Positions 21,427-64,000 of a stretch of DNA of 64,000 nucleotides are shown here, piece by piece; position 1 is the stretch's first letter, and each line of letters opens with the position of its first letter. A program made the translations under genes and the position numbers. This DNA is from an archaeon (GTDB lineage: Archaea > Nanobdellota > Nanobdellia > Woesearchaeales > JBDRAZ01), in contig JBDRAZ010000055.1 in NCBI GenBank assembly GCA_043823195.1, positions 3,780-67,779 of the forward strand, given 5' to 3'. Under the pieces are notes generated by a model. That model did no database searches and was not told where the DNA came from. It was given only the letters and a program-made list of their open reading frames with translations.

Positions 21427-21443
21427 TACTTACATTGTAAGTA
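21427..21443. promoter_or_regulatory. single copy of the 17-bp palindrome TACTTACATTGTAAGTA filling the trpB-trpA intergenic spacer
   Basis: Exact match to the repeat unit of the 40.2-kb array. Half-sites TACTTACA / TGTAAGTA are perfectly inverted. It lies between the trpB stop (21444) and the trpA start (21415). Confidence 0.4.
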
Positions 21444-28298: not shown

Positions 28299-28299
28299 A

Positions 28300-34589: not shown

Positions 34590-34713
34590 GTAGATCCCTC
34601 CAATCAGATACCCCCTTTTTAAATAATTATTTATAAAGATAATGGGCCCACCTTTATAAATACTTGGATTATTAAATGGTTTTTTCACAAAATATAGCTT
34701 ATAAATGGCAAAC

Positions 34714-37569: not shown

Positions 37570-40179
37570 ATGTACGATATTATTATCGGCAGGAACAAGT
37601 CCGACATGGACAAATTCGGTGACAGGGGCACCGTCCTTATCGGCAAGCACTATATCAAGATGGGGCGGGAAACCTCCCTTTCGAACAAGGTATTCCTGGA
37701 TGTGGCGCGGGCGCACGTTGTCTTTGTGTGCGGGAAGCGCGGCGGGGGAAAATGCCTGCATGGCGATACGCTGATTACCTTGGATGACGGTTCGCTGGTG
37801 CCAATCAGGGACATTAAGGAAAGCAACAGGCACGTTATGGCCCTTAACAAGAATCTTAAGATGCAGCCTTCTGAGAAGCTGGACTTTTACAGGAGACCGG
37901 TTGGAAGGCTCCTCAACATTAAGCTGAGAAGCGGAAAAGAGATAAGGCTTACGCCGGAACACCCGCTGCTTACTGTCAAGGGATGGATGCCTGCTGACCG
38001 GCTCAATATAGGCTCAAGAATTGCAACCCCGAGAAGTGTGCCGGCATTTGGTGATGAGCATATAAGCGAAGCCGAGACAAAAATCCTGGCTTACCTGCTG
38101 GCAGCGGGGAATGTTTCGAACAATTTCTTGTCCTTTGCAAGCCGCGATGAAAAAATTGTCGGCGATTTTAGGAACTCAGTCAGATTGTTTGATGAAAACC
38201 TGAAAATACACAAACACCCCCCGGGGGCTTGTTTTAGGGTTGCAGAAAAGCGGAAGAGGATAGTCATTAAACAACCGCCACGGGATAGGCTGGGCAGATT
38301 TTCATCGGCCACGGCCATAAGCGGCACATCATCCCTGGATGTGTGGCTTGACAAAATTGGGATCTGCAAAAAGCCCGCACGACAAAAACATATCCCAGAC
38401 ATTATCTTCAAGCTTCCGAGAAACAAAATCAGTCTTTTCCTTAACCGGCTGTTTTCCTGCGGCGCATCAATCTGCCGGGAAGGCGGGTTGTTCTGGAAAA
38501 TTTCCTACTGCTCCAGTTCAGAAAAAATGGCAAGAGAGGTGTGCCACCTCCTCCTGAGGTTTGGCGTAGTCGGCAGGCTAAGGCGCGGAGAGACAGCAGA
38601 CCCGCCCCGCTACGAGATTGAGATCGAGGGGGAATTTGTGCACACATTCCTTTCTGAGATTGGTTTGTTTGGAGATAAGGAGGAAAAGGCGGGGGGGGCG
38701 CTTGCCGATGCGCTGAAGATTGTGAGGACCCCTAACCCCGATAACATACCCGGGGGGATATGGGACCTGTACAGACCAGACGGCCGGGCAGGGGTTGGGC
38801 GTAAGCTGCACTACTCGACCCCCAAGACCTACAGCGAGAGCGGGCATTGCAGCCCATCCAGGCAGGAACTGCTGCAGATTGCCAGAGCTGATGAGAATGA
38901 CCTGTTGGCAAGGTTTGCCGCATCAGACATATTCTGGGACGAGGTCGTGCATGTTGAGTTGACTGAAGGGGATTTTACAGTGTACGATATAACTGTTCCT
39001 GAGAACCACAACTTCGTTGCCAATGACATAATTGTCCATAACTCCTATACGATGGGCGTCATTGCAGAGGGCCTTGCTGACCTGCCAAAGGATGTCTCAG
39101 ACAACCTCAGCTTCATCATGCTTGACACCATGGGAATATACTGGACCATGAAGTACGCCAATAAAAAAGAGGAGGATCTCCTCAAGGACTGGGGACTCAA
39201 ACCCAAGGGGCTTGACGTCAAAATCTATACCCCCGCCGGATATTTCAAGAGATACAAGGAAGAGGGGATACCCACCGACTTTCCGTTCTCAATCAGGCCA
39301 TCTGAACTGGATTCATCTGACTGGTGCATCACGTTTGGTGTTTCGGCCAACGAGCCCATGGGGGTCCTTATCGAAAGGACGGTCAATGAGCTGAAAAAGA
39401 AAAAAACAGGGTTCTCTGTTGAAGAAATCATTGAGGCCGTACAGGCGGACAGTGATGCGGAAAAAGAAGTCAGAGATGCGGTTGTTAACCGGTTCAGGAA
39501 CACCGAAGCATGGGGGGTGTTTTCAAAAGAGGGAACGCCGCTCAAAGAGTTGGTGCAGAAGGGCCAGGTAACGGTGCTTGATGTTTCGTGCTATGCAACA
39601 GTCCCCAATGGATGGGATGTTAAATGCATGGTTGTCGGGATAATCTCAAAGAAGCTCTTCATTGAAAGGATGGTCGCAAGAAAGGACGAGGAATACCGGA
39701 GCATTCACGCGGCCACCAATTACTTCGGAGATGATTCAGCCAGTAAACAGGAAATGCCCCTCGTGTGGCTTGTTCTGGATGAGGCGCATGAGTTCCTGCC
39801 AAATAAGGGAAAGACCACTGCAACCGACCCCCTGGTAACAATACTCAGGGAGGGAAGGCAGCCCGGACTGTCACTTATCCTTGCCACGCAGCAACCCGGA
39901 AAGATACATACCGACGTCATGACACAGTCTGACACAGTAATCAGCCACAGGATAACTGCAAAAATCGACACTGATGCGCTCGGGATGCTGATGCAGAGCT
40001 ACATGAGGGAGGGCCTTGACAGGCAGCTTGACAACCTTCCAAGGGTCAAGGGCGCAGCCATTGTCTTCGACGACACCAATGAAAAGATGTATCCGATAAG
40101 GATAAGGCCCAGATTCACTTGGCACGGCGGGGAGTCGCCCGTTGCTGTTAAGGAGAAGAGCGGGCGGTTTATGCTTTAG
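37570..40179 (+). CDS. HerA/FtsK-like P-loop ATPase (DUF87-type) interrupted by an intein. The extein is about 439 aa.
   Basis: Extein Walker A 'VVFVCGKRGGGK|SYTMGV' is split by the intein. Walker B and the HerA-type helicase motif read 'LVWLVLDEAHEFLPNKGKTT…ILREGRQPGLSLILATQQPGKI'. Confidence 0.8.
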   Translation: MYDIIIGRNKSDMDKFGDRGTVLIGKHYIKMGRETSLSNKVFLDVARAHVVFVCGKRGGGKCLHGDTLITLDDGSLVPIRDIKESNRHVMALNKNLKMQPSEKLDFYRRPVGRLLNIKLRSGKEIRLTPEHPLLTVKGWMPADRLNIGSRIATPRSVPAFGDEHISEAETKILAYLLAAGNVSNNFLSFASRDEKIVGDFRNSVRLFDENLKIHKHPPGACFRVAEKRKRIVIKQPPRDRLGRFSSATAISGTSSLDVWLDKIGICKKPARQKHIPDIIFKLPRNKISLFLNRLFSCGASICREGGLFWKISYCSSSEKMAREVCHLLLRFGVVGRLRRGETADPPRYEIEIEGEFVHTFLSEIGLFGDKEEKAGGALADALKIVRTPNPDNIPGGIWDLYRPDGRAGVGRKLHYSTPKTYSESGHCSPSRQELLQIARADENDLLARFAASDIFWDEVVHVELTEGDFTVYDITVPENHNFVANDIIVHNSYTMGVIAEGLADLPKDVSDNLSFIMLDTMGIYWTMKYANKKEEDLLKDWGLKPKGLDVKIYTPAGYFKRYKEEGIPTDFPFSIRPSELDSSDWCITFGVSANEPMGVLIERTVNELKKKKTGFSVEEIIEAVQADSDAEKEVRDAVVNRFRNTEAWGVFSKEGTPLKELVQKGQVTVLDVSCYATVPNGWDVKCMVVGIISKKLFIERMVARKDEEYRSIHAATNYFGDDSASKQEMPLVWLVLDEAHEFLPNKGKTTATDPLVTILREGRQPGLSLILATQQPGKIHTDVMTQSDTVISHRITAKIDTDALGMLMQSYMREGLDRQLDNLPRVKGAAIVFDDTNEKMYPIRIRPRFTWHGGESPVAVKEKSGRFML
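37753..39042 (+). mobile_element. intein (430 aa) with LAGLIDADG homing-endonuclease domain, inserted in the P-loop
   Basis: Block A 'CLHGDTLITLDDG'. Block B 'RLTPEHPLLTV' (TxxH). LAGLIDADG-like 'ILAYLLAAGNVSN' and 'ISLFLNRLFSCGASI'. Blocks F/G 'DFTVYDITVPENHNFVANDIIVHN' are followed by the +1 Ser. Confidence 0.8.
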
Positions 40180-40220
40180 TTCTGCCTACCATATCGGATA
40201 GGGTTTTTATTTTTGAGACA

Positions 40221-40405
40221 TACCTACATTGTAAGTATTAATAAATTCCGAGTACCTACATTGTAAGTATGAACGGACAATAATACCTACAATGTAAGTA
40301 CAAAGGCCACCATATCCGCAAGATATTTATAGAAGTTCCTACATTGTAAGTAAAAACTCATTCTGTTCAGAAAAATTTATATATAGATACTTACATTGTA
40401 AGTAT
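40221..40405. promoter_or_regulatory. array of five 17-18-bp palindromic sites TAC(C/T)TACA(T/A)TGTAAGTA, putative TrmB-type operator cluster
   Basis: Copies start at 40221, 40253, 40284, 40337 and 40388 (spacings 32, 31, 53 and 51 bp) in an AT-rich intergenic region. The motif fits TACT-N8-(A/G)AGTA, like the haloarchaeal TrmB site TACT-N7-8-GAGTA. Confidence 0.55.
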
Positions 40406-40430
40406 TGCGCTGTGTTGGGGAACACACTGA

Positions 40431-40901
40431 CTAGGGGGTCAAAGGGGCCCCAAAATAGAGTACAGAGAGAAAAGAGGTGCAGGCGCTTCATCTAGTTCTC
40501 GGGCTGCTTCGCCTGAGTTTAATGCTGAACCCATTCCCTGCTCGATATTCTATGACAGGGGCGTTAGCGTCCTGGAGGCGATTTCTGAATATCTCAAGGA
40601 TGCCAAATCACTGAACTACCACCAGATAGCCGTTCTTCTGAACAGGGATGATCGGACCATATGGACCTGCTACTCAAGGGCCAAGAAGAAACGGGCCGGA
40701 ACCAGAACCAGGATATCCCAAGTCAGTGTCCCCAGCACCATATTGCGCGACAGGAACGTAAGCGTCCTGGAAGCGATTTCTGAATACCTCAAAGACTCGC
40801 TTGGGCTGTGCTATCATGAGATAGCTGTGCTTCTGAACAGGGATGATCGGACCATATGGACCTGCTACTCAAGGGCCAAGAAAAAGAGGGATGCCCAATG
40901 A
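40431..40901 (+). pseudogene. start-less 156-codon open frame encoding two copies of a sigma-70-region-4-like HTH module. Possible pseudogene or non-canonically initiated small regulator.
   Basis: The frame is open from the stop at 40428-40430 to the TGA at 40899-40901 with no ATG, GTG or TTG. It contains a ~135-bp imperfect direct repeat (40561-40690 and 40757-40895). Each copy encodes 'VSVLEAISEYLKD…YH(Q/E)IAVLLNRDDRTIWTCYSRAKKK'. The stop overlaps the ATG of the downstream protease gene (ATGA). Confidence 0.4.
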
Positions 40902-43900
40902 CAGCGTACGGCAGAAAGGTAAGGGAGCTGCAGAGACGCATCAGGGCGTGCGAGGAGAAGAAGAGAAACGTAATCGACTGCTGCAACGACCTTTCAAGGC
41001 AGTGCGAGCACAACAGGATATCCTACTCGAGATACAGGATTCTGCTGAAAGACCAGCTGGGCGGCAAAAGCATATCTGATACACTCGTGCACTATGACAG
41101 GGCAATCACCAGATATAGGGTTGCTGTGAGCCAGTACAAAAGCGATACTCCTGACCGGCTTAACATTGCGCTGGTCGTGATGCTTATCCTTTCTGCGGGC
41201 CTTTGGATTCCTGTACTCAATAATCTGCGGGCAAGCCCAACCGGATTTGTTGCCGGCGAGACAACAGAAAGCTACACTGATGCTATAAACATGAACCTCA
41301 GCGGCAGCTACAGCTGGATACCCCCCGAATCAGGGGAGCTACGCAGCGTCATGGTTTCCGGCCGGATCACCGGGAACGGAACCGTTGGCATATACCTCGT
41401 GAGCAGGAACAGCAGGCAGCTCATTTACCGGACCCCGGAAAGGGAGGGGATCGCGGCCATCACCGGGAATGTTGTGGACAACCAGACAGAGGACAACCGG
41501 ACAGGCAACAGCTCAGGGGCTGATCCAGCCAATGAAAGCGAAATCACGCCAGAAATTACGCTCAACCTAAAATATAAGGAGGGCACCCCATTTGATGCTG
41601 ATAATGACGGAGCGGAGACCCTTGAGGGAGTAATTGACTTCTATGCAGATTCCGCATTCAGCTGGGATGCCAACCTCAGCAATGTCTGCTCGGTCTGGAG
41701 GATTTCATCAGGGGGCACAGAGTCAACAATCTGCCATGGGGCCTGGCGCTGCTGCAACTTTGCCGAACTGCTGCCGGAAGAGGGCCATTCTTGGGACGAG
41801 ATGCACCTGTACTACGGCCTATTGGGTGCCGGCACAGAAAACAACGTCAGCTCCCGGGTGCTGTATGTTGACTACAGCCTCGATCCGGAAAACCCGTACT
41901 CTGTCATTGCATACAGCAACTGGTCCACACTGCCTGCAAGATTCTATGAGCCTGCTGACGAATGGCTGGATATTGAGGACGAATGCCTGGAGACCTGCCT
42001 CCTGGGGCTGGATGAATACAACTACACGATAGCTGTTGAAACAGAGAATGCCACCGTCTTCCTGAGCAACATTACATATTCTGTCGTTGAGAAGAATAAG
42101 AAGCCCCAGCTGGTCCGTGCGATACCCCAGGTTACGGCAGGTGCAAATTTCACGATCAATGCCTCTGATTACTTTACTGATGATGACACGCTGGTGTACG
42201 CTGTTGAGGGGTGTGACATTCCGCACACAATCACGGGCGGAATCATAAGGTTCAAACCGGACGCAACCGGCATATCCAAGTGCAGAATTCGCGCATCTGA
42301 TGACCAGGACAGCGTGCTGTCAAATGTTTTCAAGGTCACGGTGGTCAGGGTGGTTCCGCTGGTTGTTGACCAGGCCATAAACATAACGCTAGCGACACAG
42401 GAGACAGTCAGGGTGATTGTCAGGCTGATAGACAACACATCCGGCTCCAACCTGAGCCTTATCAGGAAAATCGATGAATTTGAGGTACTATACCTGAACA
42501 GCTCGGCACTGAACGAACTGCAGAATAACCTCTATGCGCTCGAGGTCATGATCGACCAGCCGCTATCGCTCCTCCTTAACGACAGCATCGGCATAATCGG
42601 AGCAGAGTCAGCATGGAACATCTCACTCAACGGCTCCGGGCAGCGGGTCTGCGTGATTGATTCGGGAGTGGACAATGGCGTAGTGCCGGTTGCCGGAGGC
42701 TACGATTTTGTTAACAATGACGCAGATCCGTATGATGACCACGGCCACGGGACTTCTGTTGCTTATGTAATACACAGGATAGCACCGGAATCAGGGATAA
42801 TTGCCGTGAAGGTCATTGATGAAAACGGCGCGGGATACGAATCAGATGTCCTTGCCGGCATTGAATACTGCAGGGAGCAGAACGTGAGCGTCATCAGCTT
42901 CTCAATCGGGTCCGGGGGCTACCCCGGCACATGCAATGACAACATTGTTGCCTCCTATGCAAATTCTGCTGCGGCCGCCGGAATTTTTGTATCGGCTGCA
43001 ACAGGAAATGACGGAACAGCCCTGCTCAAGTCTCCTGCCTGCGCAAGCCTTGTAACGGCTGTTGCCGCATCAACAAAGAACGACACACTTGCCAATTTCA
43101 GCAACGTAAATGCCCTGGTGAGGATAGTGGCGCCCGGTGACAGCATCACCACGATCCTTCCGGGAGGCGATGCCATAGTCAGGAGCGGAACATCCATGTC
43201 TGCCCCCCATGTTGCCGGGGCTGCGGCACTCCTGCTGCAGAATGATGATCTTGAGCCGGAGGAACTGGAGGAGAAGATTGCCATAAGCGGAAAGGTGATC
43301 GAGCATGATGGCAGGAACTATTCAAGGATTGACATAGGGCGCGCACTTAACATAACAGTCAATGTCACTGTAAATGAAACAAACATTACCTTTGCGGCAA
43401 ACGCAACAGTTGATCCGCGGGTTGAGGAATTTGTCAACAGAGTTGGCTTCGTGCGGGCGATTGTAAGGGTGTCTGACCCCAACATCAGCCTAAACTACAG
43501 CATAATTGTCAGGGTCAACCAGTATATCGCCCTGATCCTAGACAACGAGTCGCTAAGCGTGCTGAGGCACCTCCCCGGCGTTGAAGAGATTGTAATGGAC
43601 CAGCCGGTATTGCTCCTCCTTAACGAGAGTGTGCCGCTGATCAGGGCAGATATGAACCTGTCGGTTAACGGCTCGGGCCAGAGAATCTGCGTAATTGATA
43701 CTGGTGTCGATTACAGCGTGGTCCCAAATTATGAATACGGGTTTGATTTTGTCAACAATGACACAGACCCGTTTGATGAGCACGGCCACGGAACATCGGT
43801 TGCAAACGTAATCTATAATGTTGCACCGGGGGCGGGAATAGTTGCTGCAAGGGTCGTGAATGGCAGCGGGACCGGCTATGAGTCAGATGTTCTTCTGGGA

Positions 43901-44863: not shown

Positions 44864-44876
44864 GAGAGGTGAAGAA

Positions 44877-59800: not shown

Positions 59801-62800
59801 CGGCGACATCCTTGCCACCGGTCTTATTGCAGGGTCATCTGCAATTGCTGATGACAATGCCAACCTGGAAATCTACTGGCCCCTTGACGGCGACACAAAG
59901 GATTACAGCGGACACGGCTATGACGGCTCATTGTCAGGAGCCACATTCACATCATCAGGCAAGGTCGGCGGGGCGTATGATTTCGATGCTGCCAATGAGA
60001 AGATAGTGTATAATCCCGGGGACTATGCCGTGGCAGACTACACAATAGAGTTCTGGATGAAGGCAGACACCATCCCGGGAGGATGGCGCGACATGGTTAG
60101 CATCAGCGGGGAAGCCGGCAGGGTACATCTGGAATCCGGCGACAATAGCATTACCTGGTACGGGGTGGACAGCTTGGGAAGCATTGATTCAGGTGTAATC
60201 CCTACAGTGGGCCAGTGGTATCATGTTGCAGTCACAAAGCAGGGCACTGCTGCAAAGATTTATGTGAACGGGGCTGAGAAAAACAGCGCGACCCGCGGCG
60301 CGACCACCACATTCACCTACCTCCAGGTTGGATGTGACGCCGAGATCTTTGACGGCATCCTTGACGAGGTAAAGTACTACAGGCGCACGCTATCGGCACC
60401 CGAAATTTACCAGCATTATGCCGCCGGCGTAAGGCTGCTTGAAGGCGATGCCTATGTCAGAAAAGGCGGCGACACCATGTACGGCGACCTGCGCGTACTG
60501 CAGGGAGGAAATGTCGGCATAGGGACTGCCGTACCCACGCAGCTTCTCGACGTCGAAGGAGATATGACGCTGGAAGGAGACGTACTCATGACAGACGGCG
60601 ATTACATAGGAATCTCGGGCGCGGAGAGGATCGTGTTTGATGATGCCGGAGACCTGGAGATACTGGGTGCCAATGTCGGCATCGGAACCACTGCGGCCGG
60701 CAGCACACTTGATGTCAGAGGGGATACAGTCATAGGAGACGGGACCGCATACGGAGACACAAGGTTCGCAATTGCCGGGACGAACGGCAACAATGACGGC
60801 ACCTTCCTTACTGTCAAGAGGGACGGATCAACAAACCCCGTATACAGCATACTGCCCTGGGATACACAGGTACTTCTAAGTGCGGGCACATATTACAGCA
60901 ACTCCGCCTGGGTGCATAATTCAGATGACACGAATAGCCAGATTTTTGTTCTAGATCCTGGTGCAGGTACGAGGTGGTATGCATCAAGCGATAGCTCAGG
61001 CAGCTGGAATGTAGCAAGCGATGAGACATTATGGGATGACGCAGCCAACTGGAAGAACCTTGTGCAGTCAACGCAGTCAGGGACGTCCTATTTCACAGGA
61101 GGCAACGTCGGCATAGGGACGGCGGCGCCGGGCGGAAAATTGGATGTCCGCGGTGCCCGGGTCCTGCTGGGGTCAAACACTTTCGCAAAAGCGGCTGCAG
61201 GCCAGGGTGACATTATGCTCGACAACGGCGGAACAGACACACCAGGGATACACTTCTATACGGCAGCAAACGACAACTTTGGCATTGATGTTGCCAGCGG
61301 GAAACTGCGATTTGTTTACAAGTTGGATGAATCCGGCGGAGTTTCAAGAATGGAGATGGATTCTGCAGGGGCTGTAACTGCCACAAGCTTTAGCGGCGAC
61401 GGATCGGGACTGACAGGCGTTTCCGCAGGACGGCTGCTGACATCAGACACCCGCGCAACAAACCCGGCGCCGCAAACGTACAGCATGGGAATCATCTCTG
61501 ACTTCAAGGGCAATGCGGCAGACGGCCTATCAGATGGGGGCTCATACCATGGCGTATTGATCTTCAGGCAGTGGTCCAGCGGTAGCGACTGGAGCGGCGG
61601 CGGTGTGCGGCAGGTCGGGTTTACTGATAACCATAACCTGTGGATTCGCGGCGCGAACGCAGATACCACCTGGAGCTCATGGAACAGGATCCTGGACACA
61701 GACAGCACAGTGAAGACATCAGGGGTAATGCAGATCGACGGCACAGGCAACAGCTACGTGCTGGGGAATGTCGGGGTTGGGACGGCGAGCCCGAGCGATT
61801 CCCTGCATGTTTACAGAAACTATGACTCCGCGGGCAGCACAACAACAAATGCCGCCACTATTTTTATAGACGGTGCGGCAGGAAAAGATGCCTGGCTGGG
61901 GTGGGGAACCGCCGGAACAGCAAAAATGGTTGCAGGCATTGATGATGGCGGAAATAGTGTTAATTTCTGGGGCTATAATGGTGCCTGGAATCCTGGACTG
62001 GCAGTAACAACCGGCGGCTATGTCGGGGTCGGCACGACGACACCGGACAGCAAGATGCACGTGTATGGGGCAGGCGGAACAAACCCAACTTCCATTACAG
62101 GCCTCTATGGCAACAGCATTGTCCTGGAAAATACCGGCGGCGGAACAACAGGCAGCACGGTCGGCATTTTCGGTGCACAGTCAAATAATCCCGGAATCGT
62201 GTCAGGTATTGGCTTCGGGAGAGAGGACAGCGGCAACTGGGGCTCTACTATCCGGTTCTATACGCACCCGACAGCAACAAGCAACATCCAGGATATTACA
62301 GAACGCATGAGAATAACAGCCGACGGCGGTGTCGGCATCGGGACGGCGGGGCCCGCAACCAAGCTGGATGTCTATGGCGGCATTAGGCAGGGAGGTATAA
62401 CACCTATCGGGGTTGGCGGCGAGAGCGGAGGGTCTGCGATAGACAATGACTACACGTTCGGGTTTCAGGAGGCCGGCTCATGGGTATATCCCTACCCTGA
62501 CCTGATCTTGGGGTATCACACCGGCATTAAGATCGGCGGCTACTGGAATTATAACGGAGTGCGCTTTTATAATGACCACCCCTTGCGCGCGGGCGCAACA
62601 GAACTGTTCTCTGTCGGCAATCTTGACCAGAATGTCCGTGTAACTAACGACCTCTATGTTGGCGGAAACGTGGGAATTGGGACGGGGGCGCCGGCAAACA
62701 AGCTGGATGTCTGGGCGGGGGCCGGCCAGGCGAGGGTGTACAGCTCAAGCGATGCCCCGCTGAAGATCCAGGGCTCCAACACATGGTCGGGCATATCTTT

Positions 62801-64000
62801 TCAGGACAGTGCCGCATCTGACGAAATTTGGTATTGGGGCGGGACAGACACCTTTGCCATAGGCGGCGGGGGCTCAACAGGGCCTGCCGGCAAGAAGCTG
62901 CACGTCGACGGGGCAATGACCATCGGCTCACACTATGACACAACATCCATGCCGACAAATGGCCTCAGGGTTGAGGGCGCGATAATGGCAGGCGACGAGA
63001 TAATGGATTCGGGTTCAACAGACAACCTTGTTGACAACGGCGACTTTGAGCAGGGGGAAATCGGGTGGGGTGGGATAACTGGAATATCATCTACACAGTA
63101 CTATGCAGGAGGCAAGTCTGCGCTTTTCAGCGGCTCACTGACAATGCTTTCTGATGACTACATTCCCGTTGACCCCGAATATGATACGCTTCATCTCGAG
63201 GGGTGGTTCAAGAAAACAAGCGGGGGAGGTATTTTGTACTTCGGCTACATCGCATACGACCAGAACAAGGCTGTAATCACAACATCCCCGTGCGGAACAT
63301 ACTGCTACTTCGCTGCATCAGGGTATGGGCTTCCAATAGACGGCAACTGGCATAAGTTCCAGTCAACAACGACAGGGGAATGCACATCCTTCAACTGTTT
63401 CCCCGTGGGAACAAGGTACGTGCGCGTATTGGGCCTCATAAACTACGCTGGTTCAGGTGACACATATGTTGACCACGTACGACTCTACAAAGTGAGCAAC
63501 GGGCCGCTGGTCGTGGGTGACTACGCAAGCACAACAAACAGAATAGACTATAAAGAGACATCCAGAATATACACAACTAGTGCCGGTGATCTGATACTGT
63601 ATCCGAAAAGCGACGGACAGGGCGAAATAGGCATCGGTACAGCCAGCCCCACTGATGCATTGCATATTCACAGAGATTCCGGACTCAGGATAAGCGATCC
63701 TGCTAATCCATATAGAGCCAACATATTGTTTGGGGCTGATACCGTGTGGAACAGCGGTATCCGGGTATACGACAATGGCGATGCAGAGATGAGAATCTGG
63801 CATGAGAATGCCAACGGCCGGATTATTCTGGCCACCGGGTATGCGGGGGATATGGCAACCACAATGCCCAGCGACGGGCTGTTCATAGACCAGAACAACC
63901 TGGGAATCGGGGTCAATCCTGTCACTAACCTGCAGGTTGCAAACAACGTGGCAACTGATGCGCTTGACACCTATCCCGAGTACCAGATCATGCTGTATGA
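44877..64000 (+). CDS. giant secreted repeat protein, 3'-partial (at least 6,374 codons within the window). It has tail-fibre/beta-helix-like modules, two LamG domains, two CBM4/9-like domains and a beta-propeller-like region.
   Basis: The ATG at 44877 is preceded by GAGAGGTGA and lies 14 nt after the protease stop. The signal peptide is 'MKRIGALAVIFMLHLAIALPFVEAADP'. I read the frame (position mod 3 = 0) codon by codon through to position 63999 without meeting a stop. The ORF track lists no plus-strand ORF in this frame after 44863, consistent with one uninterrupted frame running off the window. Confidence 0.85.
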   Translation, partial: MNVLGHEKMKRIGALAVIFMLHLAIALPFVEAADPGHSAAAVGSGTFESGDYGFPGSLNITASLGVGSRWPGGTGNINASGNISIGGLFFSRGAGNNYFAGNLGIGTAAAASKLTVIGNGNITGGLNVTGSIKSISGIFYGDGSGLTNLPAGSVQDVWVNESGDTMTGNLIINANLTVDSGVLFVDNYGNYVGIGTTRPDELFELSSSSFSNTDMKLTATANGAVGGSKVGNVMFEGQDTSVGTAVLSQISGIYVEGASGGDGFAIDGSSGDGGGIAFLTNKYTGSWDGLSEAMRIDMNGYVGIGTGRPTQLLDVRGNIYTTGNIAVNGDHITSDGNLEIEATGYVRIGDDGSPGSANGDDDLYVRGSIEADGIFYGDGSGLTNLPSGAVADVWVNESGDTMTGNLVFSSANLDMGGGIINLSGGYIYDSTGAATVNDDLKVNGGDITGANSITMDLGEADTDAVVITTDNVGDYDDPDLVINSGGEGNIRLGAADADTGFQIYTDSASFPHALKVRAELNPDAADYEMFVVMSSGAAERFSVIHGVTGYGSQFYDSLAVGAAGDNSPTLTHIDFGTDSSGDLWVGDDAEINGEMHIDGTGTSTMDGDLQVADDSWIGIGSGSERVVFDSAGDIEVLGANVGIGTTVASAYLHIEDLLSSGDLLELTTDNKDIDIRIGENDDGGYGYYWRYVGTQGGNDNELELWTEGQAGADVQVYEIEQDGQVNFLQNVGLGTDSPAYRLDVVDSIRAGTGSPGTADMSTGANADLFVTDDLEVDGIIYGDGSGLTNLPAGAVADIWINESGDTTGALTKDLNIDAGTLVVDYDANAVGIGTSVATGKLTITGPTANTGVDSNSELVIYGAHPQIKLRDTDGVGESWWIHANDAGLYFLKNDDESSTSTWDSTRPFFIGESGNVGIGTAAPSALLDVQGDAYLTGDILMTDGNYIGISGNERIVFDDAGDIEILGANVGIGTTAAETTLHVEGNMTIGGTGLLFEDSTSGGDASLTRVIRFNNNDDLRYDDTNNIYTFTGDAKTYLVMDDQSVGIARAPSYGLDVINSTRIGDGTPGTADMKGKSAADLYVTDDIEFDGVIYGDGSGLTNLPAGAVQDIWINESGDTTGALVKDLNIDANTLLVDYDANSVGIGTSAASQGRLHVYRSDTIGGVGGTLTNAALAISNGANDGFYIDENEFHQSGDNFNLYLDTDAKNFIFYDNAGQIMTIQDGGNVGIGTATATQKLDVQGNAYITGDILMTDGNYIGISGNERIVFDTAGDIEILGASVGIGTTVATAPLEIAASADEQLLIEGGWDDTLTSNARMNFNDENFGVGAGQYGGGSSEDAMVLWSYKGAGRGILFASTAAGDTTTFQSMTHNMFIDGNTGAVGIAKTSPSYTLDVSNSTRIGTGTPGTVDMKGGPDADLYVTNDIEFDGVIYGDGSGLVNLPAGAVQDIWINESGDTTGALTKDLNIDADTFVISYDDNRVGIGTAAPTQLLDVEGNLEVDGTLYFDAANADGTIDMDGYRIEDLGDPDSGDDAMDRDYADSRYVNTNGDTMTGTLTTRQVTVQDGYVIRHQEQGGNAIMFDCDGTDCDSRITIHDGQGNFNIKTGVDDGELFIAGGSHGAAKYTQYASGADGAHIFQVDDQGTGGAAVSYDGGLRFDDSGLFITTSPGDHFATGGNQIADLSGHLYTEAYLYHEGDTNTYVGFPSNDEIRLRTSGTDRITIVSGGNVGIGTATPSQLLDVRGNIYTTGDIAVNGDDITSDSNLDISATGYVRIGDDTGTPNYASGDDDLYVYGDIEADGVFYGDGSGLINLPAGAVQDIWINESGDTTGALIKDLNIDANTFVISYDDDLVGIGTATPATKLDVEGDIQLSGQLLGDVQRGGETTYSSVGYWTFDGDYDDYSGYGQTGTARNNAARTSTNALFGQSLSLDGTDDSIEIADSGSSPLDVTNAFTFEAWVRPDLNTDEMILNKETSYEWVIQGSGTVQWALYTSGTWEWHDTGVSVPTLEWTHLALTYDGTNVRVYKNGELKSTIADPDGGAIGTNDNNLCIGTRGGDGCAGTQDYDGLIDEVRIYNRVLTSEEIRAHHTQSYWAEEGSNVYLTSSGNVGIGTATATQKLDVRGNAYITGDVLMTDDNYIGISGAERLVFDTAGDLEILGANLGIGTSTTNANLDIYGGGSATTQIFIQNPGNNGAGKGAIDVNNGDIIGLNKIFFDDLGEGLVWATANTAATSKTQIYSTDATPSNIYLDTNLNSNAGHVIIPSGNVGIGTVTPAQKLDVRGNIYTTGDIAVNGDDITSDGNLLIAATGYVRVGDTGTPTYASGDDDLYVYGDIEADGVFYGDGSGLVNLPAGAVDDIWINESGDTTGALTKDLNIDADTFVISYDDNLVGIGTATPSQKLDVVGNVEINGKFGAATGSSDGQTRGFWVWNLGDSNHVIYSAASTGTSPAGAGAADGLWDAGHRMRFRTATTQGFLFENNGETALVDIDSDNGNLRSIGTAYFSGSGNNYFAGNIGIGTATPSQLLDVRGNIYTTGDIAVNGDDITSDSNLDISATGYVRIGDDTGTPNYANADDDLYVYGDIEADGVFYGDGSGLVNLPAGAVDDIWINESGDTTGALTKDLNIDADTLVISYDDNLVGIGTASPSDALHVHKDSGIRISDPNNVYRANLLFGADSAWNSGIRVYDNGDAEMRIWHENVDGQIILATGYAGDMATTIPGDGLFIHENKLGIGYGATTIPDGARLAVNGNTGIGTASPTQLLDVRGNIYASGNVDVDGTLYFDAANADGQLDMDGQTIQMRGGVIEDATDEVDINDNLAVAGQITANYFKAGQGNSATIGSVGWYRIASNGGNRANAEFTLRDYISGGGHSMLTFKVGVSYDWEPGMSFTLLNHNYYSTATFTKVRVWESSYTYDPMYVEVYVARTGSMDYSIYDNLQSSGWSPIDWTAGATPTGTGAYTAREFEVNNLFTVGDYDDRFTVARGGNVGIGSTSPSQKLHVQGNIYASGNVDVDGTLYFDAGNADGTLDMDNQVITNIGDAGTDFTSGGHLTLAGDLAVNGDDITSDSNLDISATGYVRIGDDTGTPTYANGDDDLYVYGDIEADGVFYGDGSGLVNLPAGAVDDIWINESGDTTGALTKDLNIDADTFVISYDDNRVGIGTAAPGASLDVYGTATDHYFRLGSGAAGANSWDFVTSGTGSTFVPAGSFWLSKAGTGNVLTVDTSGNVGIGTNTPTQLLDVEGDMTLEGDILMTDGDYIGISGNERIVFDGAGDLEILGASVGIGTTVASDTLDVRGDAVIGDGTTYGDTRFAIAGTNGNNDGTFLTVKRDGTTNPVYSMLPWDSQIYLSAGIYYSNGAWVHNSDDTNNLLFVLDPGAGTAWYASNNGAGSWNVASNEALWDAGANWKNLVQSTQSGVSYFTGGNVGIGTATPSQLLDVRGNIYTTGDIAVNGDDITSDGNLLIAATGYVRIGDTGTPNYANADDDLYVYGDIEADGIFYGDGSGLVNLPAGAVQDIWINESGDTTGALTKDLNIDADTLVVDYDANSVGIGTATPGYKLEVAGTAKSGAAAVSAANQPALRIAAANTAATGRITAIQQLTTEGDTRIFADYDPYVEYGMYARNSDDSIHFTAGTSTNGLESWTEYNTAGAARTAYSKMKVSLGNGQVTIGGNVGIGTATATQKLDVRGNIYASGNVDVDGTLYFDAANADGTLDMDGQTIQMRGGVIEDATDEVDINDDVAITGNVLMADDKYIGISGAERIVFDTAGDIEVQGANLGIGTATASQALYVVGQHIYTTGTLVDDGNGKNLIPNWQMESDTYWADPPEQTAIADFEGVTHYAHQATESGTGCYQWAQTGSIPADASKTYKFTVWIKSTGTDMNNYFGFYIFDSAGTRITGSWDNPYFKTSESDPNSWIKWTAYLGPSYAGGATGCDTSKTNADDWCMSSSTAYIRMRFGSCYADGSGTSYSYFIYPSIEEVNPDDSYTVGNHVFMSGNVGIGSTSPSQRLHVQGNIYASGNVDVDGTLYFDAGNADGTLDMDNQVITNIGDAGTDFTSGGHLTLAGDLAVNGDDITSDSNLDISATGYVRIGDTASPGIANGDDDLYVEGDIEADGVFYGDGSGLVNLPAGAVQDIWINESGDTTGALTKDLNIDADTFVISYDDNRVGIGTAAPGAPLHVRLAAGGETVRIDGGTSYPRLYFDSGHASVLAVINRQTGDEAKNLYFGETADTGQYIFRTSGATTFEGNVGIGTGTPTQKLDVRGNIYASGNVDVDGTLYFDAANADGQLDMDGQTIQMRGGVIEDATDEVDINDDVAITGDILLADGNYIGISGAERIVFDDAGDLEILGANVGIGTTVAGEALDVRGNIRAYGRIDAGLYEEPIPGIGYGNTAMPSSGITYTDTGVNLPSTAFRGVVWTGKHYLFTDYVNDRVYFYDQNFNQIQNKYGNTYVTLPSDPVNPHGAAWDGRYLWMIEYPGSSNFLVAYDLDGSSVVRVARCDVAGTAAYGVGYAEGLLYYLQSGTLYGYRWNGGDSCTQVMTATGFGTISAQAITYDGSYLWITQNSNTIYKANLDGDIISTIAWGSGQPPEITGWTWNGKNIVAFEYSAMDIDIIHTTQEIMLTGAVGIGTSSALERIDARDGQYIFDDRLCIGNSGTACSDIGSGTAGVWYGDDAADDFFVGMHTANSKFGWYRGGWLGTIDGGGNMGIGTETPAQKLDVRGNIYTTGDIAVNGDDITSDGNLLIAATGYVRIGDTGTPNYANGDDDLYVYGDIEADGIIYGDGSGIFNIDADSIEDIWINEAGDTTGALTEDLNIDANTFVISYDDNLVGIGTATPGYKLEVDGTFNADVGNAAETTIFEHSGVGTPVPFNIRKTGYSGSSQSFGVLHLDMGHSVAGGGSNLHFRLKDSAGNYDEYGGIGAYIVDSTTTSEDGNLAFYTTAAGTTRQQRMTIQYGGNVGIGTAAPGAKLHVAGDILATGLIAGSSAIADDNANLEIYWPLDGDTKDYSGHGYDGSLSGATFTSSGKVGGAYDFDAANEKIVYNPGDYAVADYTIEFWMKADTIPGGWRDMVSISGEAGRVHLESGDNSITWYGVDSLGSIDSGVIPTVGQWYHVAVTKQGTAAKIYVNGAEKNSATRGATTTFTYLQVGCDAEIFDGILDEVKYYRRTLSAPEIYQHYAAGVRLLEGDAYVRKGGDTMYGDLRVLQGGNVGIGTAVPTQLLDVEGDMTLEGDVLMTDGDYIGISGAERIVFDDAGDLEILGANVGIGTTAAGSTLDVRGDTVIGDGTAYGDTRFAIAGTNGNNDGTFLTVKRDGSTNPVYSILPWDTQVLLSAGTYYSNSAWVHNSDDTNSQIFVLDPGAGTRWYASSDSSGSWNVASDETLWDDAANWKNLVQSTQSGTSYFTGGNVGIGTAAPGGKLDVRGARVLLGSNTFAKAAAGQGDIMLDNGGTDTPGIHFYTAANDNFGIDVASGKLRFVYKLDESGGVSRMEMDSAGAVTATSFSGDGSGLTGVSAGRLLTSDTRATNPAPQTYSMGIISDFKGNAADGLSDGGSYHGVLIFRQWSSGSDWSGGGVRQVGFTDNHNLWIRGANADTTWSSWNRILDTDSTVKTSGVMQIDGTGNSYVLGNVGVGTASPSDSLHVYRNYDSAGSTTTNAATIFIDGAAGKDAWLGWGTAGTAKMVAGIDDGGNSVNFWGYNGAWNPGLAVTTGGYVGVGTTTPDSKMHVYGAGGTNPTSITGLYGNSIVLENTGGGTTGSTVGIFGAQSNNPGIVSGIGFGREDSGNWGSTIRFYTHPTATSNIQDITERMRITADGGVGIGTAGPATKLDVYGGIRQGGITPIGVGGESGGSAIDNDYTFGFQEAGSWVYPYPDLILGYHTGIKIGGYWNYNGVRFYNDHPLRAGATELFSVGNLDQNVRVTNDLYVGGNVGIGTGAPANKLDVWAGAGQARVYSSSDAPLKIQGSNTWSGISFQDSAASDEIWYWGGTDTFAIGGGGSTGPAGKKLHVDGAMTIGSHYDTTSMPTNGLRVEGAIMAGDEIMDSGSTDNLVDNGDFEQGEIGWGGITGISSTQYYAGGKSALFSGSLTMLSDDYIPVDPEYDTLHLEGWFKKTSGGGILYFGYIAYDQNKAVITTSPCGTYCYFAASGYGLPIDGNWHKFQSTTTGECTSFNCFPVGTRYVRVLGLINYAGSGDTYVDHVRLYKVSNGPLVVGDYASTTNRIDYKETSRIYTTSAGDLILYPKSDGQGEIGIGTASPTDALHIHRDSGLRISDPANPYRANILFGADTVWNSGIRVYDNGDAEMRIWHENANGRIILATGYAGDMATTMPSDGLFIDQNNLGIGVNPVTNLQVANNVATDALDTYPEYQIMLY

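What the first reader, a model, noticed from the sequence alone, without database searches (positions are those of the whole stretch)
37570..64000. Co-oriented locus: intein-bearing HerA-like ATPase, operator array, HTH remnant, tandem S8 protease, then the giant carbohydrate-binding surface protein. Candidate undescribed surface-structure system.
All components lie on the plus strand with short or overlapping junctions:
- the HTH-frame stop overlaps the protease ATG (ATGA);
- the protease stop is 14 nt before the giant-ORF ATG, which has a Shine-Dalgarno-like GGAGGTGA.

A membrane-anchored double subtilase encoded immediately upstream of, and apparently co-transcribed with, a giant Sec-secreted protein suggests a dedicated maturation or anchoring protease for that protein. 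The ATPase and the clustered palindromic sites upstream suggest a regulated, possibly energised, assembly or export module.

I do not recognise this gene combination as a described archaeal system.
Basis: inference. Interest (0 to 1): 0.7.

Follow-up and report, generated by a model that had tools for sequence, protein, structure and literature searches.

The report
Regulated archaeal protease–fibre surface operon
The five-part "system" is really three things. A housekeeping ATPase sits next door by chance. A widespread, apparently undescribed archaeal cassette follows: an array of DNA palindromes, a double DNA-binding protein and an overlapping gene for a membrane-anchored surface protein. 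In this genome that surface protein carries two proteases and is followed by a giant tail-fibre-like adhesin.

Summary
All the described features are in the sequence, but the five-part system is only partly real.

**ATPase: not part of it.** The intein-bearing DUF87/HerA-type ATPase is a conserved core gene, about 70% identical to Woesearchaeota/Nanoarchaeota proteins. Its neighbours elsewhere are unrelated. An oligo-T tract separates it from what follows.

**The "operator array" and "HTH remnant": the best-conserved part.**
- The HTH region is an intact two-repeat sigma-70-region-4-like reading frame.
- The family has 1,869 cluster representatives.
- The same 17-bp palindrome forms arrays upstream of such genes in 25 of 80 metagenomic loci: 67 sites in 34 kb, against 2 in 530 kb elsewhere.
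- The next gene usually overlaps the HTH stop codon. It encodes a large membrane-anchored surface protein that shares the protease's N-terminal anchor.
- In other proteins four HTH repeats are fused to the cytoplasmic C-terminus.

**S8 proteases: unique to this genome.** None occurs in 114 related loci.

**Giant protein (more than 6,374 aa).** It is a tail-fibre-like adhesin resembling Bdellovibrio MAT fibres, with LamG domains. In another archaeal MAG the same anchor and fibre modules are fused in one protein.

**Likely function (inferred).** An autoregulated operon for a surface adhesin and protease, whose transcription may respond to the state of the cell surface.

The parts
37570..40179 (+). 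DUF87/HerA-family P-loop ATPase whose Walker A motif is interrupted by an intein. It is a neighbour, not part of the operon.
   Evidence: Pfam DUF87 2.8e-13 on the spliced extein. More than 5,700 homologues, the best about 70% identical, about 440 aa long and without an intein, from Woesearchaeota/Nanoarchaeota. Unrelated neighbours in L006-L008.
37753..39042 (+). Intein of 430 aa with a LAGLIDADG homing-endonuclease domain. It starts with Cys and ends His-Asn, followed by Ser.
   Evidence: Intein_splicing 1.6e-24 and LAGLIDADG_3 3.8e-10. Boundaries.
40204..40214 (+). Oligo-T tract TTTTTATTTTT, 25 nt after the ATPase stop codon. It looks like an archaeal termination signal.
   Evidence: Sequence. 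Its role as a terminator is inferred from general knowledge of archaeal termination at oligo-T.
40221..40404 (.). Array of five 17-bp palindromes, TACYTACAWTGTAAGTA, each preceded by an A/T-rich TATA-like stretch. They are the putative operators of the HTH protein.
   Evidence: 0 matches expected by chance. The same palindrome forms arrays of 2-6 upstream of homologous HTH genes in 25 of 80 loci: 67 sites in 33.8 kb, against 2 in 530 kb elsewhere and 0 in 525 kb of control loci.
40431..40901 (+). Reading frame of a tandem (two-repeat) sigma-70-region-4-like HTH protein. The annotated ORF is only the second repeat (TTG 40743-40901, 52 aa, MFH1849613.1). There is no canonical start upstream.
   Evidence: 64% identity to the two-repeat protein P0157 across both repeats. 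Family census. NCBI accession.
40898..41158 (+). Protease N-terminal cytoplasmic helical domain, aa 1-87, with the motif I.YS.Y...L.GKS...YD.
   Evidence: Homologous to the N-termini of P0182, P0163, P0184 and P0174, which all carry four HTH repeats at the C-terminus. Also homologous to P0264 aa 185-252, where it is fused directly after two HTH repeats.
41159..41227 (+). Single transmembrane helix, aa 88-110, LNIALVVMLILSAGLWIPVLNNL. N-in orientation is inferred.
   Evidence: Sequence.
41228..42400 (+). Conserved juxtamembrane ectodomain ('ectodomain X', about aa 111-500). It is Cys-containing and rich in N-glycosylation sequons.
   Evidence: 35% identical to the TARA protein P0002. tblastn homologues in 32 of 80 HTH loci, 27 of them starting 98-535 bp downstream of the HTH gene on the same strand. 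Also present at the N-terminus of the L012 giant protein and in L013.
42407..43330 (+). First unit: propeptide-like segment plus S8 subtilase. Asp in VCVIDSG, His in HGHGTS, Asn in AATGND, Ser in GTSMSAPH.
   Evidence: Pfam Peptidase_S8. PDB subtilisins and thermitase at 1e-27 to 1e-32. Motif coordinates.
43451..44370 (+). Second unit: propeptide-like segment plus S8 subtilase, 51% identical to the first, with an intact triad.
44371..44863 (+). Protease C-terminal region of about 165 aa, Cys-rich, with no recognised domain and no transmembrane segment.
   Evidence: Sequence. No significant similarity to the giant protein.
44864..44876 (+). 13-nt spacer containing the Shine-Dalgarno-like AGAGGTGA.
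44877..64000 (+). Giant secreted fibre-like protein, more than 6,374 aa and cut off by the window end. It has a signal peptide. Twelve conserved 'joint' modules of about 150 aa (W[VI]NE[SA]GD) alternate with variable domains.
   Evidence: PDB Bdellovibrio MAT fibres: 8OND 1e-9, 8OML 1e-6, 8OL4 8e-6. PHROG tail-fibre and tail families at 5.8e-32, 1.6e-26 and 1e-17. Homologues in DPANN and CPR giant proteins.
50670..51131 (+). LamG / concanavalin-like lectin domain 1 of the giant protein.
   Evidence: Laminin_G_3 1.4e-30.
60024..60407 (+). LamG / concanavalin-like lectin domain 2 of the giant protein.
   Evidence: Laminin_G_3 7.3e-21.
21427..21443 (.). A sixth, isolated, perfect copy of the palindrome, in the 30-nt spacer between trpB and trpA.

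Best explanation
The region holds two unrelated units.

**Unit 1: the ATPase (37570-40179).** This is a conserved housekeeping DUF87/HerA-family ATPase that has been invaded by a homing intein at its P-loop. It ends at an oligo-T tract.

**Unit 2: the operon (40221 to beyond 64000).** It is built on a widespread cassette that is not in the curated family libraries and that I did not find described. The cassette has three parts:
- an array of 17-bp palindromes, each behind a TATA-like stretch;
- a gene for a tandem sigma-70-region-4-like HTH protein;
- a gene that overlaps its stop codon (ATGA) and encodes an N-in, single-pass membrane-anchored surface protein. That protein has a conserved cytoplasmic N-domain, a conserved juxtamembrane ectodomain and a variable outer 'payload'.

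In this genome the payload is two active-looking S8 subtilases. Thirteen nucleotides further on, and probably on the same transcript, lies a giant Sec-secreted fibre. It is built from trimeric tail-fibre-like modules and carries LamG lectin domains.

**Inferred mechanism**
- The HTH protein binds the palindromes, one repeat per half-site, and autoregulates the operon.
- The cytoplasmic N-domain of the anchored protein interacts with it. This would couple the state of the cell surface to transcription, as with a sigma/anti-sigma pair or a ToxR-type tethered regulator.
- The fibre is an adhesin for another cell or for glycans.
- The anchored subtilases act next to it, on the fibre or on the target's surface.

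**Shown:** domain identities, the conserved cassette, the fusions, and the independence of the ATPase.
**Inferred:** DNA binding, the HTH/N-domain interaction, co-transcription, and the role of the proteases.
For: **ATPase is independent**
- 5,732 homologues at E<=1e-20. The top hits are about 70% identical and about 440 aa long.
- In L006-L008 it sits among different housekeeping genes, with no S8 and no giant fibre gene next to it.
- It is absent from the 80 HTH loci and from the fibre loci.

**HTH family**
- 1,869 cluster representatives at E<=1e-3, and 1,071 at E<=1e-10.
- Most have 2 or 4 repeats. Twelve of the top 150 are 779-5,919 aa long, with the repeats at the extreme C-terminus after a short hydrophobic segment and a poly-K/R stretch.

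**Palindromes**
- 67 sites lie within 450 bp upstream of the HTH gene in 25 of 80 loci. Elsewhere in those loci there are 2 in 530 kb, and in control loci 0 in 525 kb.

**Gene pair**
- In 50 of 62 loci with enough downstream sequence, the longest candidate ORF starting near the HTH stop begins at or before that stop codon. In 15 loci the start lies one base before the stop codon, as at the window's ATGA.
- These ORFs reach more than 3,300 aa.
- A homologue of the protease ectodomain is found in 32 of 80 loci, 27 of them directly downstream.

**Fusions**
- The protease N-terminus (aa 6-198) matches the N-termini of P0182, P0163 and P0184 at 74-84 bits. All three carry four HTH repeats at the C-terminus.
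- P0264 has two HTH repeats fused to the N-domain.
- The L012/L003 giant protein combines the anchor with fibre modules.

**Fibre identity:**
**Active-site motifs of the proteases:**
Against: - No experiment or transcript data exist. DNA binding by the HTH protein is inferred only from co-occurrence.
- The window's two-repeat frame has no canonical start codon. The codon at the homologous start position reads CTA, so here the regulator may be truncated to one repeat or be defective.
- One palindrome lies inside the trp operon.
- The cytoplasmic N-domain is detectable in only 9 of 70 downstream genes with my small profile. A general HTH/N-domain interaction is therefore not established.
- S8 domains and fibre modules are absent from all 80 cassette loci, so the protease-fibre combination may be a one-off juxtaposition.
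- The taxonomy of most HTH loci is unknown. Only L056 and L058 show archaeal marker genes.
- The giant protein's C-terminus lies outside the window.
Confidence: 0.6

Rival explanations
1. All five components, including the HerA-like ATPase, form one energised assembly or export system for the giant surface protein.
For: The genes are co-oriented and close together. Giant DPANN 'SPEARE' proteins are reported to carry a VirB4/TraG-like ATPase domain, or to be followed by one. That domain belongs to the same FtsK-HerA superfamily (PMC10266531).
Against: The ATPase is a highly conserved, roughly 440-aa soluble protein with variable housekeeping neighbours. It lies within 10 kb of none of the 80 HTH cassettes and none of the 31 fibre loci. 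An oligo-T tract and a 250-bp promoter/operator region separate it from the operon. It scores far below the HerA, VirB4 and TraB equivalog cut-offs.
Confidence: 0.05
2. The double subtilase is a dedicated maturation or anchoring protease for the giant fibre. The HTH and palindromes are merely its local regulator.
For: There is a 13-nt spacer with a Shine-Dalgarno-like sequence. Both products are extracytoplasmic, one anchored and the other secreted. Many phage and MAT fibres need proteolytic maturation, although by a built-in S74 domain (PMC10769870). The anchor is fused to fibre modules in L012.
Against: No S8 domain occurs near any of 31 fibre-module loci. Fourteen of the 25 genomic fibre loci examined have at least 3 kb visible upstream of the fibre ORF. 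The protease has no orthologue in 5.8 billion proteins. The same anchor carries quite different payloads elsewhere, such as LamG and Ig-like domains.
Confidence: 0.2
3. Chance juxtaposition. The HTH/anchored-protease cassette and the giant fibre are two independent surface-protein genes that merely sit side by side in a variable surface-protein island.
For: The genes that follow the large anchored protein in other cassette loci are varied and are not fibres. Fibre genes elsewhere have unrelated neighbours such as toxin-antitoxin pairs, a DGR and prophage-like genes.
Against: The 13-nt spacer leaves no room for a promoter. The anchor and fibre are fused in L012/L003, and an anchor-domain ORF lies 3.6 kb upstream of a fibre gene in L013.
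Confidence: 0.15
4. The palindromes are not operators. They are mobile or RNA-level elements (REP-like hairpins, or relics of IS630/Tc1-type terminal repeats), and the two-HTH protein is a relic of a transposase DNA-binding domain.
For: One isolated copy sits between trpB and trpA, inside a transcript. The HTH repeats give weak hits to the IS630 transposase N-terminus and to HTH_23/HTH_38. Each 17-mer could form a 7-bp hairpin.
Against: The palindromes are enriched several hundred-fold immediately upstream of HTH genes, and nowhere else, in 1 Mb of related and control loci. No transposase catalytic domain is present. The gene order with large surface-protein genes is stable. The RNA fold of the array is not exceptional, z = -2.0.
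Confidence: 0.1

Closest known systems
Bdellovibrio bacteriovorus MAT (mosaic adhesive trimer) fibres and phage tail fibres (Caulton et al. 2024, PMC10769870)
   Same: There is sequence-level similarity between segments of the giant protein and the solved beta-helical fibre parts of Bd2133, Bd1334 and Bd2439, and with PHROG tail-fibre families. Both have a modular fibre with interchangeable adhesive domains, a signal peptide and a surface location.
   Different: The window protein is 6-8 times longer. It is archaeal. Its conserved joint modules are repeated 12 times and it carries LamG domains. The conserved MAT N-terminal domain was not tested. The S74 chaperone could not be looked for because the C-terminus lies outside the window.
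Giant 'SPEARE' surface proteins of Nanohaloarchaeota (Hamm et al. 2019, PMC6642349; Reva et al. 2023, PMC10266531)
   Same: Both are very large archaeal surface proteins with laminin-G and other adhesion domains, thought to mediate cell-cell interaction. A serine-protease region was originally proposed for SPEARE proteins. They have a cytoplasmic tail beyond a transmembrane segment.
   Different: Here the protease is a separate, bona fide S8 gene. The fibre modules are tail-fibre-like. The cytoplasmic partner is a tandem HTH protein rather than a VirB4/TraG-like ATPase. No sequence relationship to SPEARE proteins was tested.
Bacterial ECF sigma / anti-sigma gene pairs, and ToxR/CadC-type membrane-tethered regulators
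   Same: A small protein with a sigma-70-region-4-type HTH is encoded immediately upstream of, and overlapping, the gene for a single-pass membrane protein with a cytoplasmic N-domain and a large outer domain. In relatives the HTH repeats are covalently tethered to the membrane protein.
   Different: There is no sigma region 2 and archaea do not use sigma factors. The HTH is duplicated or quadruplicated. No anti-sigma (ZAS or RskA) domain was detected. The membrane partner is a giant adhesin or protease rather than a dedicated sensor.
'Sigma-70' genes of Woesearchaeota reported without a partner (Castelle et al. 2021, PMC8204110)
   Same: That paper reports sigma-70-classified genes prevalent in Woesearchaeota and states that no anti-sigma factor was found and that their control is unclear. 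The family found here scores only against Sigma70_r4_2 and ECF-sigma models. Other proteins of this locus, the ATPase and the fibre modules, have their nearest named relatives in Woesearchaeota and other DPANN lineages.
   Different: Whether their family fam00359 is this family could not be checked, because the supplement is not held.
Membrane-anchored and secreted archaeal and bacterial subtilases (Peptidase S8)
   Same: Two canonical Asp-His-Ser catalytic domains, each preceded by a propeptide-like segment.
   Different: The tandem duplication sits within one polypeptide, on an N-terminal anchor otherwise used by non-enzymatic giant surface proteins. No orthologue was found.

Membership tests
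Peptidase S8 (subtilase) | Pfam PF00082 above the gathering score | tested here: met
   203.5 bits against a cut-off of 21.8, two stretches.
Peptidase S8 (subtilase) | Catalytic Asp, His and Ser in that order, plus the oxyanion Asn | tested here: met
   VCVIDSG / HGHGTS / AATGND / GTSMSAPH in the first domain, and ICVIDTG / HGHGTS / AATGNS / GTSMSAAH in the second.
FtsK-HerA superfamily, DUF87 (HerA central domain) | Pfam PF01935 above the gathering score on the spliced protein, with Walker A restored by splicing | tested here: met
   50.9 bits against a cut-off of 23.2. GKRGGGK|S is reconstituted.
Bona fide HerA, VirB4 or TraB ATPases (repair helicase, anti-phage HerA, or secretion/conjugation ATPase) | NCBIfam equivalog score, or a NurA or secretion partner gene | tested here: not met
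   15-43 bits against cut-offs of 590-970. No NurA or type IV secretion gene is adjacent in the window.
Intein with homing endonuclease | Splicing blocks (N-terminal Cys, C-terminal His-Asn, +1 Ser) and a LAGLIDADG domain | tested here: met
   Intein_splicing 86.9 bits against a cut-off of 35.8; LAGLIDADG_3 40.3 bits against 22.5. CLHGD...VHN|S.
MAT / tail-fibre-like trimeric fibres | Sequence similarity to solved fibre segments and to tail-fibre families | tested here: met
   8OND 1e-9, 8OML 1e-6, 8OL4 8e-6. phrog_3269 5.8e-32, phrog_9942 1.6e-26, phrog_18345 1e-17.
MAT / tail-fibre-like trimeric fibres | Trimerisation along the fibre | not testable with these tools
   Only monomer prediction is available. 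No fibre segment was modelled.
MAT / tail-fibre-like trimeric fibres | C-terminal S74 chaperone-protease, or a defined tip domain | not testable with these tools
   The C-terminus lies beyond the window end. The contig (68,929 bp) could not be fetched.
Sigma-70 family sigma factor | Region 2 (binds the -10 element and core polymerase) together with region 4 | tested here: not met
   Only Sigma70_r4_2-type matches were found, and they are duplicated. There is no region 2 hit in the window frame or in P0153, P0157, P0181 or P0264.
ECF sigma / anti-sigma pair | Anti-sigma domain (ZAS or RskA type) in the cytoplasmic N-terminus of the downstream membrane protein | tested here: not met
   No Pfam or NCBIfam hit in protease aa 1-100. 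Only the gene arrangement is analogous.
Tandem-HTH / anchored-surface-protein cassette (defined here) | Two sigma4-like repeats in one frame | tested here: met
   64% identity to P0157 across both repeats. A canonical start codon is missing, however.
Tandem-HTH / anchored-surface-protein cassette (defined here) | Array of TACYTACAWTGTARGTA palindromes within 450 bp upstream | tested here: met
   Five sites in the window. 25 of 80 loci also have them.
Tandem-HTH / anchored-surface-protein cassette (defined here) | A downstream gene that overlaps the HTH stop codon and encodes a transmembrane-anchored protein with ectodomain X | tested here: met
   ATGA at 40898-40901. 50 of 62 loci overlap and 27 have ectodomain X directly downstream.
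SPEARE giant proteins | C-terminal transmembrane segment plus a cytoplasmic ATPase domain in the same polypeptide | not testable with these tools
   The giant protein's C-terminus is outside the window.

The most novel reading that the evidence does not exclude
The tandem sigma4-like HTH proteins, their palindrome arrays and the overlapping or fused giant surface-protein genes form a previously unrecognised, widespread archaeal trans-envelope module, probably DPANN-type. In this reading a DNA-binding domain is physically coupled to the cytoplasmic end of a giant adhesin, by fusion or by binding to its N-domain. That coupling would either relay cell-cell contact to transcription or tether the gene locus to the membrane to help export of giant proteins. 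It would also supply the missing partner for the 'sigma-70-like' genes reported in Woesearchaeota.
Probability: 0.3. Interest if true: 0.85.

Novelty: new variant of a known kind. Interest (0 to 1): 0.62.

Why it matters
Giant surface proteins are the main candidates for how small episymbiotic archaea and bacteria attach to and exploit their hosts. Nothing is known about how they are regulated.

In this family a sigma-70-region-4-like DNA-binding module is linked to large membrane-anchored surface proteins in one of two ways. Either its gene overlaps theirs, or the module is fused to their cytoplasmic tail. In the closest relatives a conserved palindrome array lies upstream.

That gives a concrete, testable link between the cell surface and transcription in archaea. 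It may also explain the orphan 'sigma factors' noted in Woesearchaeota.

The window itself adds two things. It holds a unique variant whose payload is a double subtilase, and it supports the idea that the anchor and the tail-fibre-like adhesins work together.

It also corrects an over-inclusive reading: the neighbouring ATPase is unrelated to the operon.

Tried and rejected
- **Homologue search with 5,000 aa of the giant protein.** It timed out, so 1,500 aa were used instead.
- **Fetching the source contig.** Lookup by exact protein found nothing on record. The contig is also not among the GTDB representatives. The giant protein's C-terminus therefore remains unseen.
- **tRNA and Rfam scans of the window.** Nothing found.
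- **Bacterial-type promoter and terminator scan.** No more sites than in shuffles, and not suited to archaea.
- **AlphaFold2 models.** The protease ectodomain, with a two-sequence alignment, gave mean pLDDT 34. The two-repeat HTH, as a single sequence, gave pLDDT 46. Both are too poor for fold search, so none was run. The HTH model shows only the expected pattern of short helices.
- **Search of the phage collection with the S8 half.** Only generic similarity of about 35% to Bacillus phage proteases, with no link to tail fibres.
- **Protease C-terminus against the giant protein.** No significant similarity, E >= 0.97. The idea that the two genes are a recently split single gene is therefore not supported by sequence.
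- **Profile of the cytoplasmic N-domain.** It hit only 9 of 70 downstream genes and three iterations added none.
- **Names and taxonomy for HTH family members.** None on record.
- **Supplement of Castelle 2021, searched for fam00359.** Not held.
- **Ideas considered and dropped.** A CRISPR-like array was dropped because the spacing is irregular (8-28 nt) and no cas genes are present. A replication origin was dropped because MCM is 6 kb away but there is no Orc1/Cdc6 gene, and the palindrome array recurs next to HTH genes in other loci. A prophage was dropped because only the fibre modules are phage-like.

Full report
**Setting**

The window is a piece of an archaeal chromosome.
- Upstream of the finding lie MCM (31913-34000, -), TBP (34005-34688, -), IscS and IscU (35267-36816, +) and a 168-aa ORF.
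- Further upstream lie complete shikimate and tryptophan operons and PheRS.
- NCBI holds the contig (68,929 bp) as 'MAG: archaeon'. The three relevant proteins are MFH1849612.1, MFH1849613.1 and MFH1849614.1.

**Check of the observation**

Every feature is present.
- *ATPase.* The 869-aa ORF at 37570-40179 carries a 430-aa intein with a LAGLIDADG domain. The intein sits inside the Walker A motif, GKRGGGK|C...HN|S. After in-silico splicing, the 439-aa protein is a DUF87/HerA-central-domain ATPase.
- *Intergenic region.* It holds five copies of the 17-bp palindrome TACYTACAWTGTAAGTA at 40221-40404, where shuffles give none.
- *HTH frame.* It ends in a TGA that overlaps the protease ATG at 40898.
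- *Protease.* It is 1,321 aa long, with a transmembrane helix at aa 88-110. It has two S8 domains that are 51% identical to each other, and both keep the catalytic triad.
- *Spacer.* The gap to the next ATG (44877) is 13 nt, not 14. The Shine-Dalgarno-like sequence is AGAGGTGA.
- *Giant ORF.* From 44877 the frame stays open for 6,374 codons to the window end. The product has a signal peptide and two LamG domains.

**The ATPase is a bystander**

- The spliced protein has 5,732 homologues at E<=1e-20. The best are about 70% identical, about 440 aa long and lack an intein. They come from Woesearchaeota, Nanoarchaeota and unclassified archaea.
- In three relatives with long contigs its neighbours are a rotamase, an MFS transporter, topoisomerase VI, a glycosyltransferase and similar genes. 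None has an S8 protease or a giant fibre gene next to the ATPase.
- It lies within 10 kb of none of the 80 HTH-cassette loci and none of the 31 fibre loci not fetched with the ATPase itself.
- It scores far below the equivalog cut-offs for HerA, VirB4 or TraB.
- Twenty-five nucleotides after its stop codon comes TTTTTATTTTT (40204-40214). I read this as an archaeal termination signal, from general knowledge.
- An intein at the P-loop of a conserved gene is the usual habitat of inteins.

**The giant protein is a tail-fibre-like adhesin**

- It contains twelve copies of a conserved module of about 150 aa (...GDGSGLxNLPAGAVxDIWINESGDT...VGIGT...). These alternate with variable domains of 100-500 aa.
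- Segments match solved trimeric fibre parts of the Bdellovibrio 'mosaic adhesive trimer' proteins Bd2133, Bd1334 and Bd2439 (PMC10769870). They also match PHROG tail-fibre and tail families.
- Homologues are other very large proteins of Woese-, Pace-, Aenigm-, Nano- and Altiarchaeota, bins labelled Methanosarcinales, and CPR, Omnitrophota and Elusimicrobiota bacteria. A few are on viral contigs.
- The nearest analogues in the literature are the giant laminin-G-bearing surface proteins of Nanohaloarchaeota (PMC6642349, PMC10266531).

**The S8/giant pairing is not conserved**

- The protease has no orthologue among 5.8 billion proteins. The only partial relative, P0002, shares the N-terminal 450 aa and has no S8 domain.
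- tblastn with both S8 domains found nothing in 26 genomic fibre-module loci. Of the 25 examined for this, 14 have at least 3 kb visible upstream of the fibre ORF. It also found nothing in 5 viral fibre loci or in 80 HTH loci.

**The HTH 'remnant' and the palindromes are the conserved core**

- *Family size.* An exhaustive HMMER search with the 52-aa annotated ORF found 1,869 cluster representatives, 1,071 of them at E<=1e-10.
- *Typical members.* They are 140-190 aa long with two repeats, or 300-360 aa with four. Twelve of the top 150 are large or giant proteins of 779-5,919 aa with the repeats at the very C-terminus. There the repeats follow a conserved membrane-proximal module, a short hydrophobic segment and a poly-K/R stretch, so they should be cytoplasmic.
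- *The window's frame.* The frame at 40431-40901 aligns over both repeats with such two-repeat proteins, at 64% identity to P0157. It is therefore not a remnant next to a gene but one two-repeat gene.
- *The missing start.* There is no ATG, GTG or TTG before 40743, and the position homologous to the start codon in L058 reads CTA. GTG 40412 lies about 25-34 nt downstream of the TATA-like stretch at 40377-40386, which is where a leaderless start would be expected. It is out of frame by one base, just upstream of a G5 run. An assembly indel, a real start-codon loss and a one-repeat product are all possible.
- *Curated families.* Only sub-threshold or domain-level matches to sigma-70 region 4 and ECF sigma models exist for this family.

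**The cassette recurs in metagenomes**

Eighty loci were kept.
1. *Palindromes.* The same palindrome, allowing up to 2 mismatches, occurs 67 times within 450 bp upstream of the HTH gene. These sites lie in 25 loci, in arrays of 2-6. Elsewhere in those loci there are 2 occurrences in 530 kb, and in unrelated loci 0 in 525 kb. A weak TATA-like consensus lies 4-12 nt upstream of the sites. The translated N-terminal extension of P0167 even reads through such a site as YLQCKY.
2. *Overlap.* In 50 of 62 loci with enough downstream sequence, the longest candidate ORF starting near the HTH stop begins at or before that stop codon. In 15 loci the start lies one base before the stop codon, as at the window's ATGA; L035 reads GTGA. 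These ORFs are often more than 800 aa and reach more than 3,300 aa.
3. *Shared ectodomain.* The protease ectodomain (aa 100-560) has homologues in 32 loci. In 27 of them the match lies 98-535 bp downstream of the HTH gene on the same strand. That is the distance expected for a cytoplasmic tail plus a transmembrane segment.
4. *Shared N-terminus.* The protease N-terminus (aa 6-198) is homologous to the N-termini of P0182, P0163, P0184 and P0174, all of which end in four HTH repeats. In P0264 two HTH repeats are fused directly to this N-domain.
5. *A syntenic relative.* L058 has MCM (62% identity) and TBP (76%) 7.5-10 kb upstream of its cassette but no ATPase.

The conserved unit is therefore a palindrome array, a tandem HTH gene and an N-in membrane-anchored large surface protein. 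In this genome the variable outer part of that protein is the double subtilase.

**Link between the anchored protein and the fibre**

- In contig CAYQPU010000014.1 (L012/L003) a 3,504-aa protein begins with the same transmembrane segment and ectodomain. It continues into WVNESGD fibre modules that are 24-30% identical to the window's giant protein.
- That protein is separated from the 2,100-aa fibre protein P0013 only by an in-frame TGA inside a repeat unit.
- In L013 an anchor-domain ORF lies 3.6 kb upstream of a fibre gene.
- With the 13-nt junction in the window, this supports a functional link between the anchor and the fibre. It says nothing about the S8 domains.

**Mechanism (inferred)**

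- The tandem HTH protein binds the palindromes and controls the promoter or promoters in the array. The last palindrome lies between a TATA-like box and the expected transcription start, which is the classical position for an archaeal repressor.
- The HTH module is repeatedly found joined to the cytoplasmic parts of the surface protein, either by gene overlap or by fusion. This suggests physical coupling, analogous to sigma/anti-sigma pairs or ToxR-type tethered regulators.
- The fibre would bind glycans or another cell's surface through its LamG and other variable domains.
- The anchored subtilases would act at the same surface.

**Relation to the literature**

Castelle et al. (PMC8204110) reported 'sigma-70' genes prevalent in Woesearchaeota, with no anti-sigma partner found. 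This family may be what they saw, but I could not verify that.

**Caveats**

- There are no expression or binding data.
- The start codon of the window's HTH gene is uncertain.
- One palindrome lies between trpB and trpA.
- The cytoplasmic N-domain was detected downstream in only 9 of 70 loci.
- The taxonomy of most cassette loci is unknown. Only L056 and L058 carry archaeal marker genes.
- Both structure predictions failed.
- The giant protein's C-terminus was not seen.

**Verdict**

- The ATPase should be removed from the model, and the dedicated-protease idea is unproven.
- What remains is a real, conserved cassette that does not appear in the curated family libraries or in the papers I could search.
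- I rate it a new variant of known kinds: membrane-coupled transcription regulators and giant fibre adhesins.
- Interest is about 0.6.

Noticed in passing
window 21427-21443: An isolated perfect copy of the palindrome (TACTTACAWTGTAAGTA) fills most of the 30-nt spacer between the trpB stop codon and the trpA start codon on the minus strand, just before the trpA Shine-Dalgarno sequence. It could be a regulon member, an RNA hairpin or a stray copy.
   Followed up: partly
window 4683-27131: The window carries complete shikimate and chorismate genes, prephenate dehydratase and dehydrogenase, a trpEGD-C/F-BA operon and PheRS. This is far more biosynthesis than expected for a reduced DPANN genome. 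Yet the ATPase and the fibre modules have their nearest named relatives in DPANN-type MAGs.
   Followed up: partly
window 37570-40179: NCBI names this protein 'LAGLIDADG family homing endonuclease' (MFH1849612.1). The host protein, a conserved DUF87 ATPase, is hidden by the intein annotation.
   Followed up: yes
window 40898-64000: N-x-S/T sequons are about ten times denser in the protease (47 in 1,321 aa) than in the giant protein (21 in 6,374 aa). Twelve of the giant protein's 21 lie in the conserved W(V/I)NESGD motif.
   Followed up: no
window 40536-40895: The two HTH repeats are about 85% identical as protein and 80-88% identical as DNA, with a 195-bp period. That is much closer than the repeats in some homologues, such as P0167. 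It suggests recent duplication or gene conversion. The duplication also copies an out-of-frame ATG (40661 and 40856).
   Followed up: partly
L003/L012 (CAYQPU010000014.1), L003 about 9990-10000: An in-frame TGA inside a repeat unit splits what looks like a single gene for an anchored fibre of at least 5,600 aa into ORFs of 3,504 and 2,100 aa. This could be a pseudogene, a sequencing error or stop-codon read-through.
   Followed up: partly
L005 1-7215 (JAIPGQ010000011.1, Pacearchaeota): A diversity-generating retroelement (bAvd plus reverse transcriptase) and an intein-containing FGE-sulfatase-domain protein lie directly upstream of the fibre protein P0015.
   Followed up: no
L001/L002 10001-14779 (JGI Ga0111033_1182033): Protein P0012 shares 75% identity over about 180 aa with the window's giant protein. 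It sits in a context with a CI-repressor/S24 protein, an OLD nuclease and a radical-SAM HxsD cluster. This suggests recent exchange of fibre modules between very different genomes.
   Followed up: no
P0156, P0158, P0159, P0161, P0163, P0171, P0172, P0182, P0187, P0292 (C-terminal 250 aa): The large proteins with four HTH repeats share a conserved membrane-proximal module: ...GNYT..DGTGQEELYFCL..VG..LT..YST..G.WTIRI, then about 12-15 hydrophobic residues, then poly-K/R, then IPxSIF. It looks like a dedicated C-terminal anchor that I could not match to any described sorting signal.
   Followed up: partly
window 27312-30142: A MoxR-type AAA ATPase, a DUF58/VWA protein and a further ORF form a typical MoxR-VWA cluster. 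It is unrelated to the finding.
   Followed up: no
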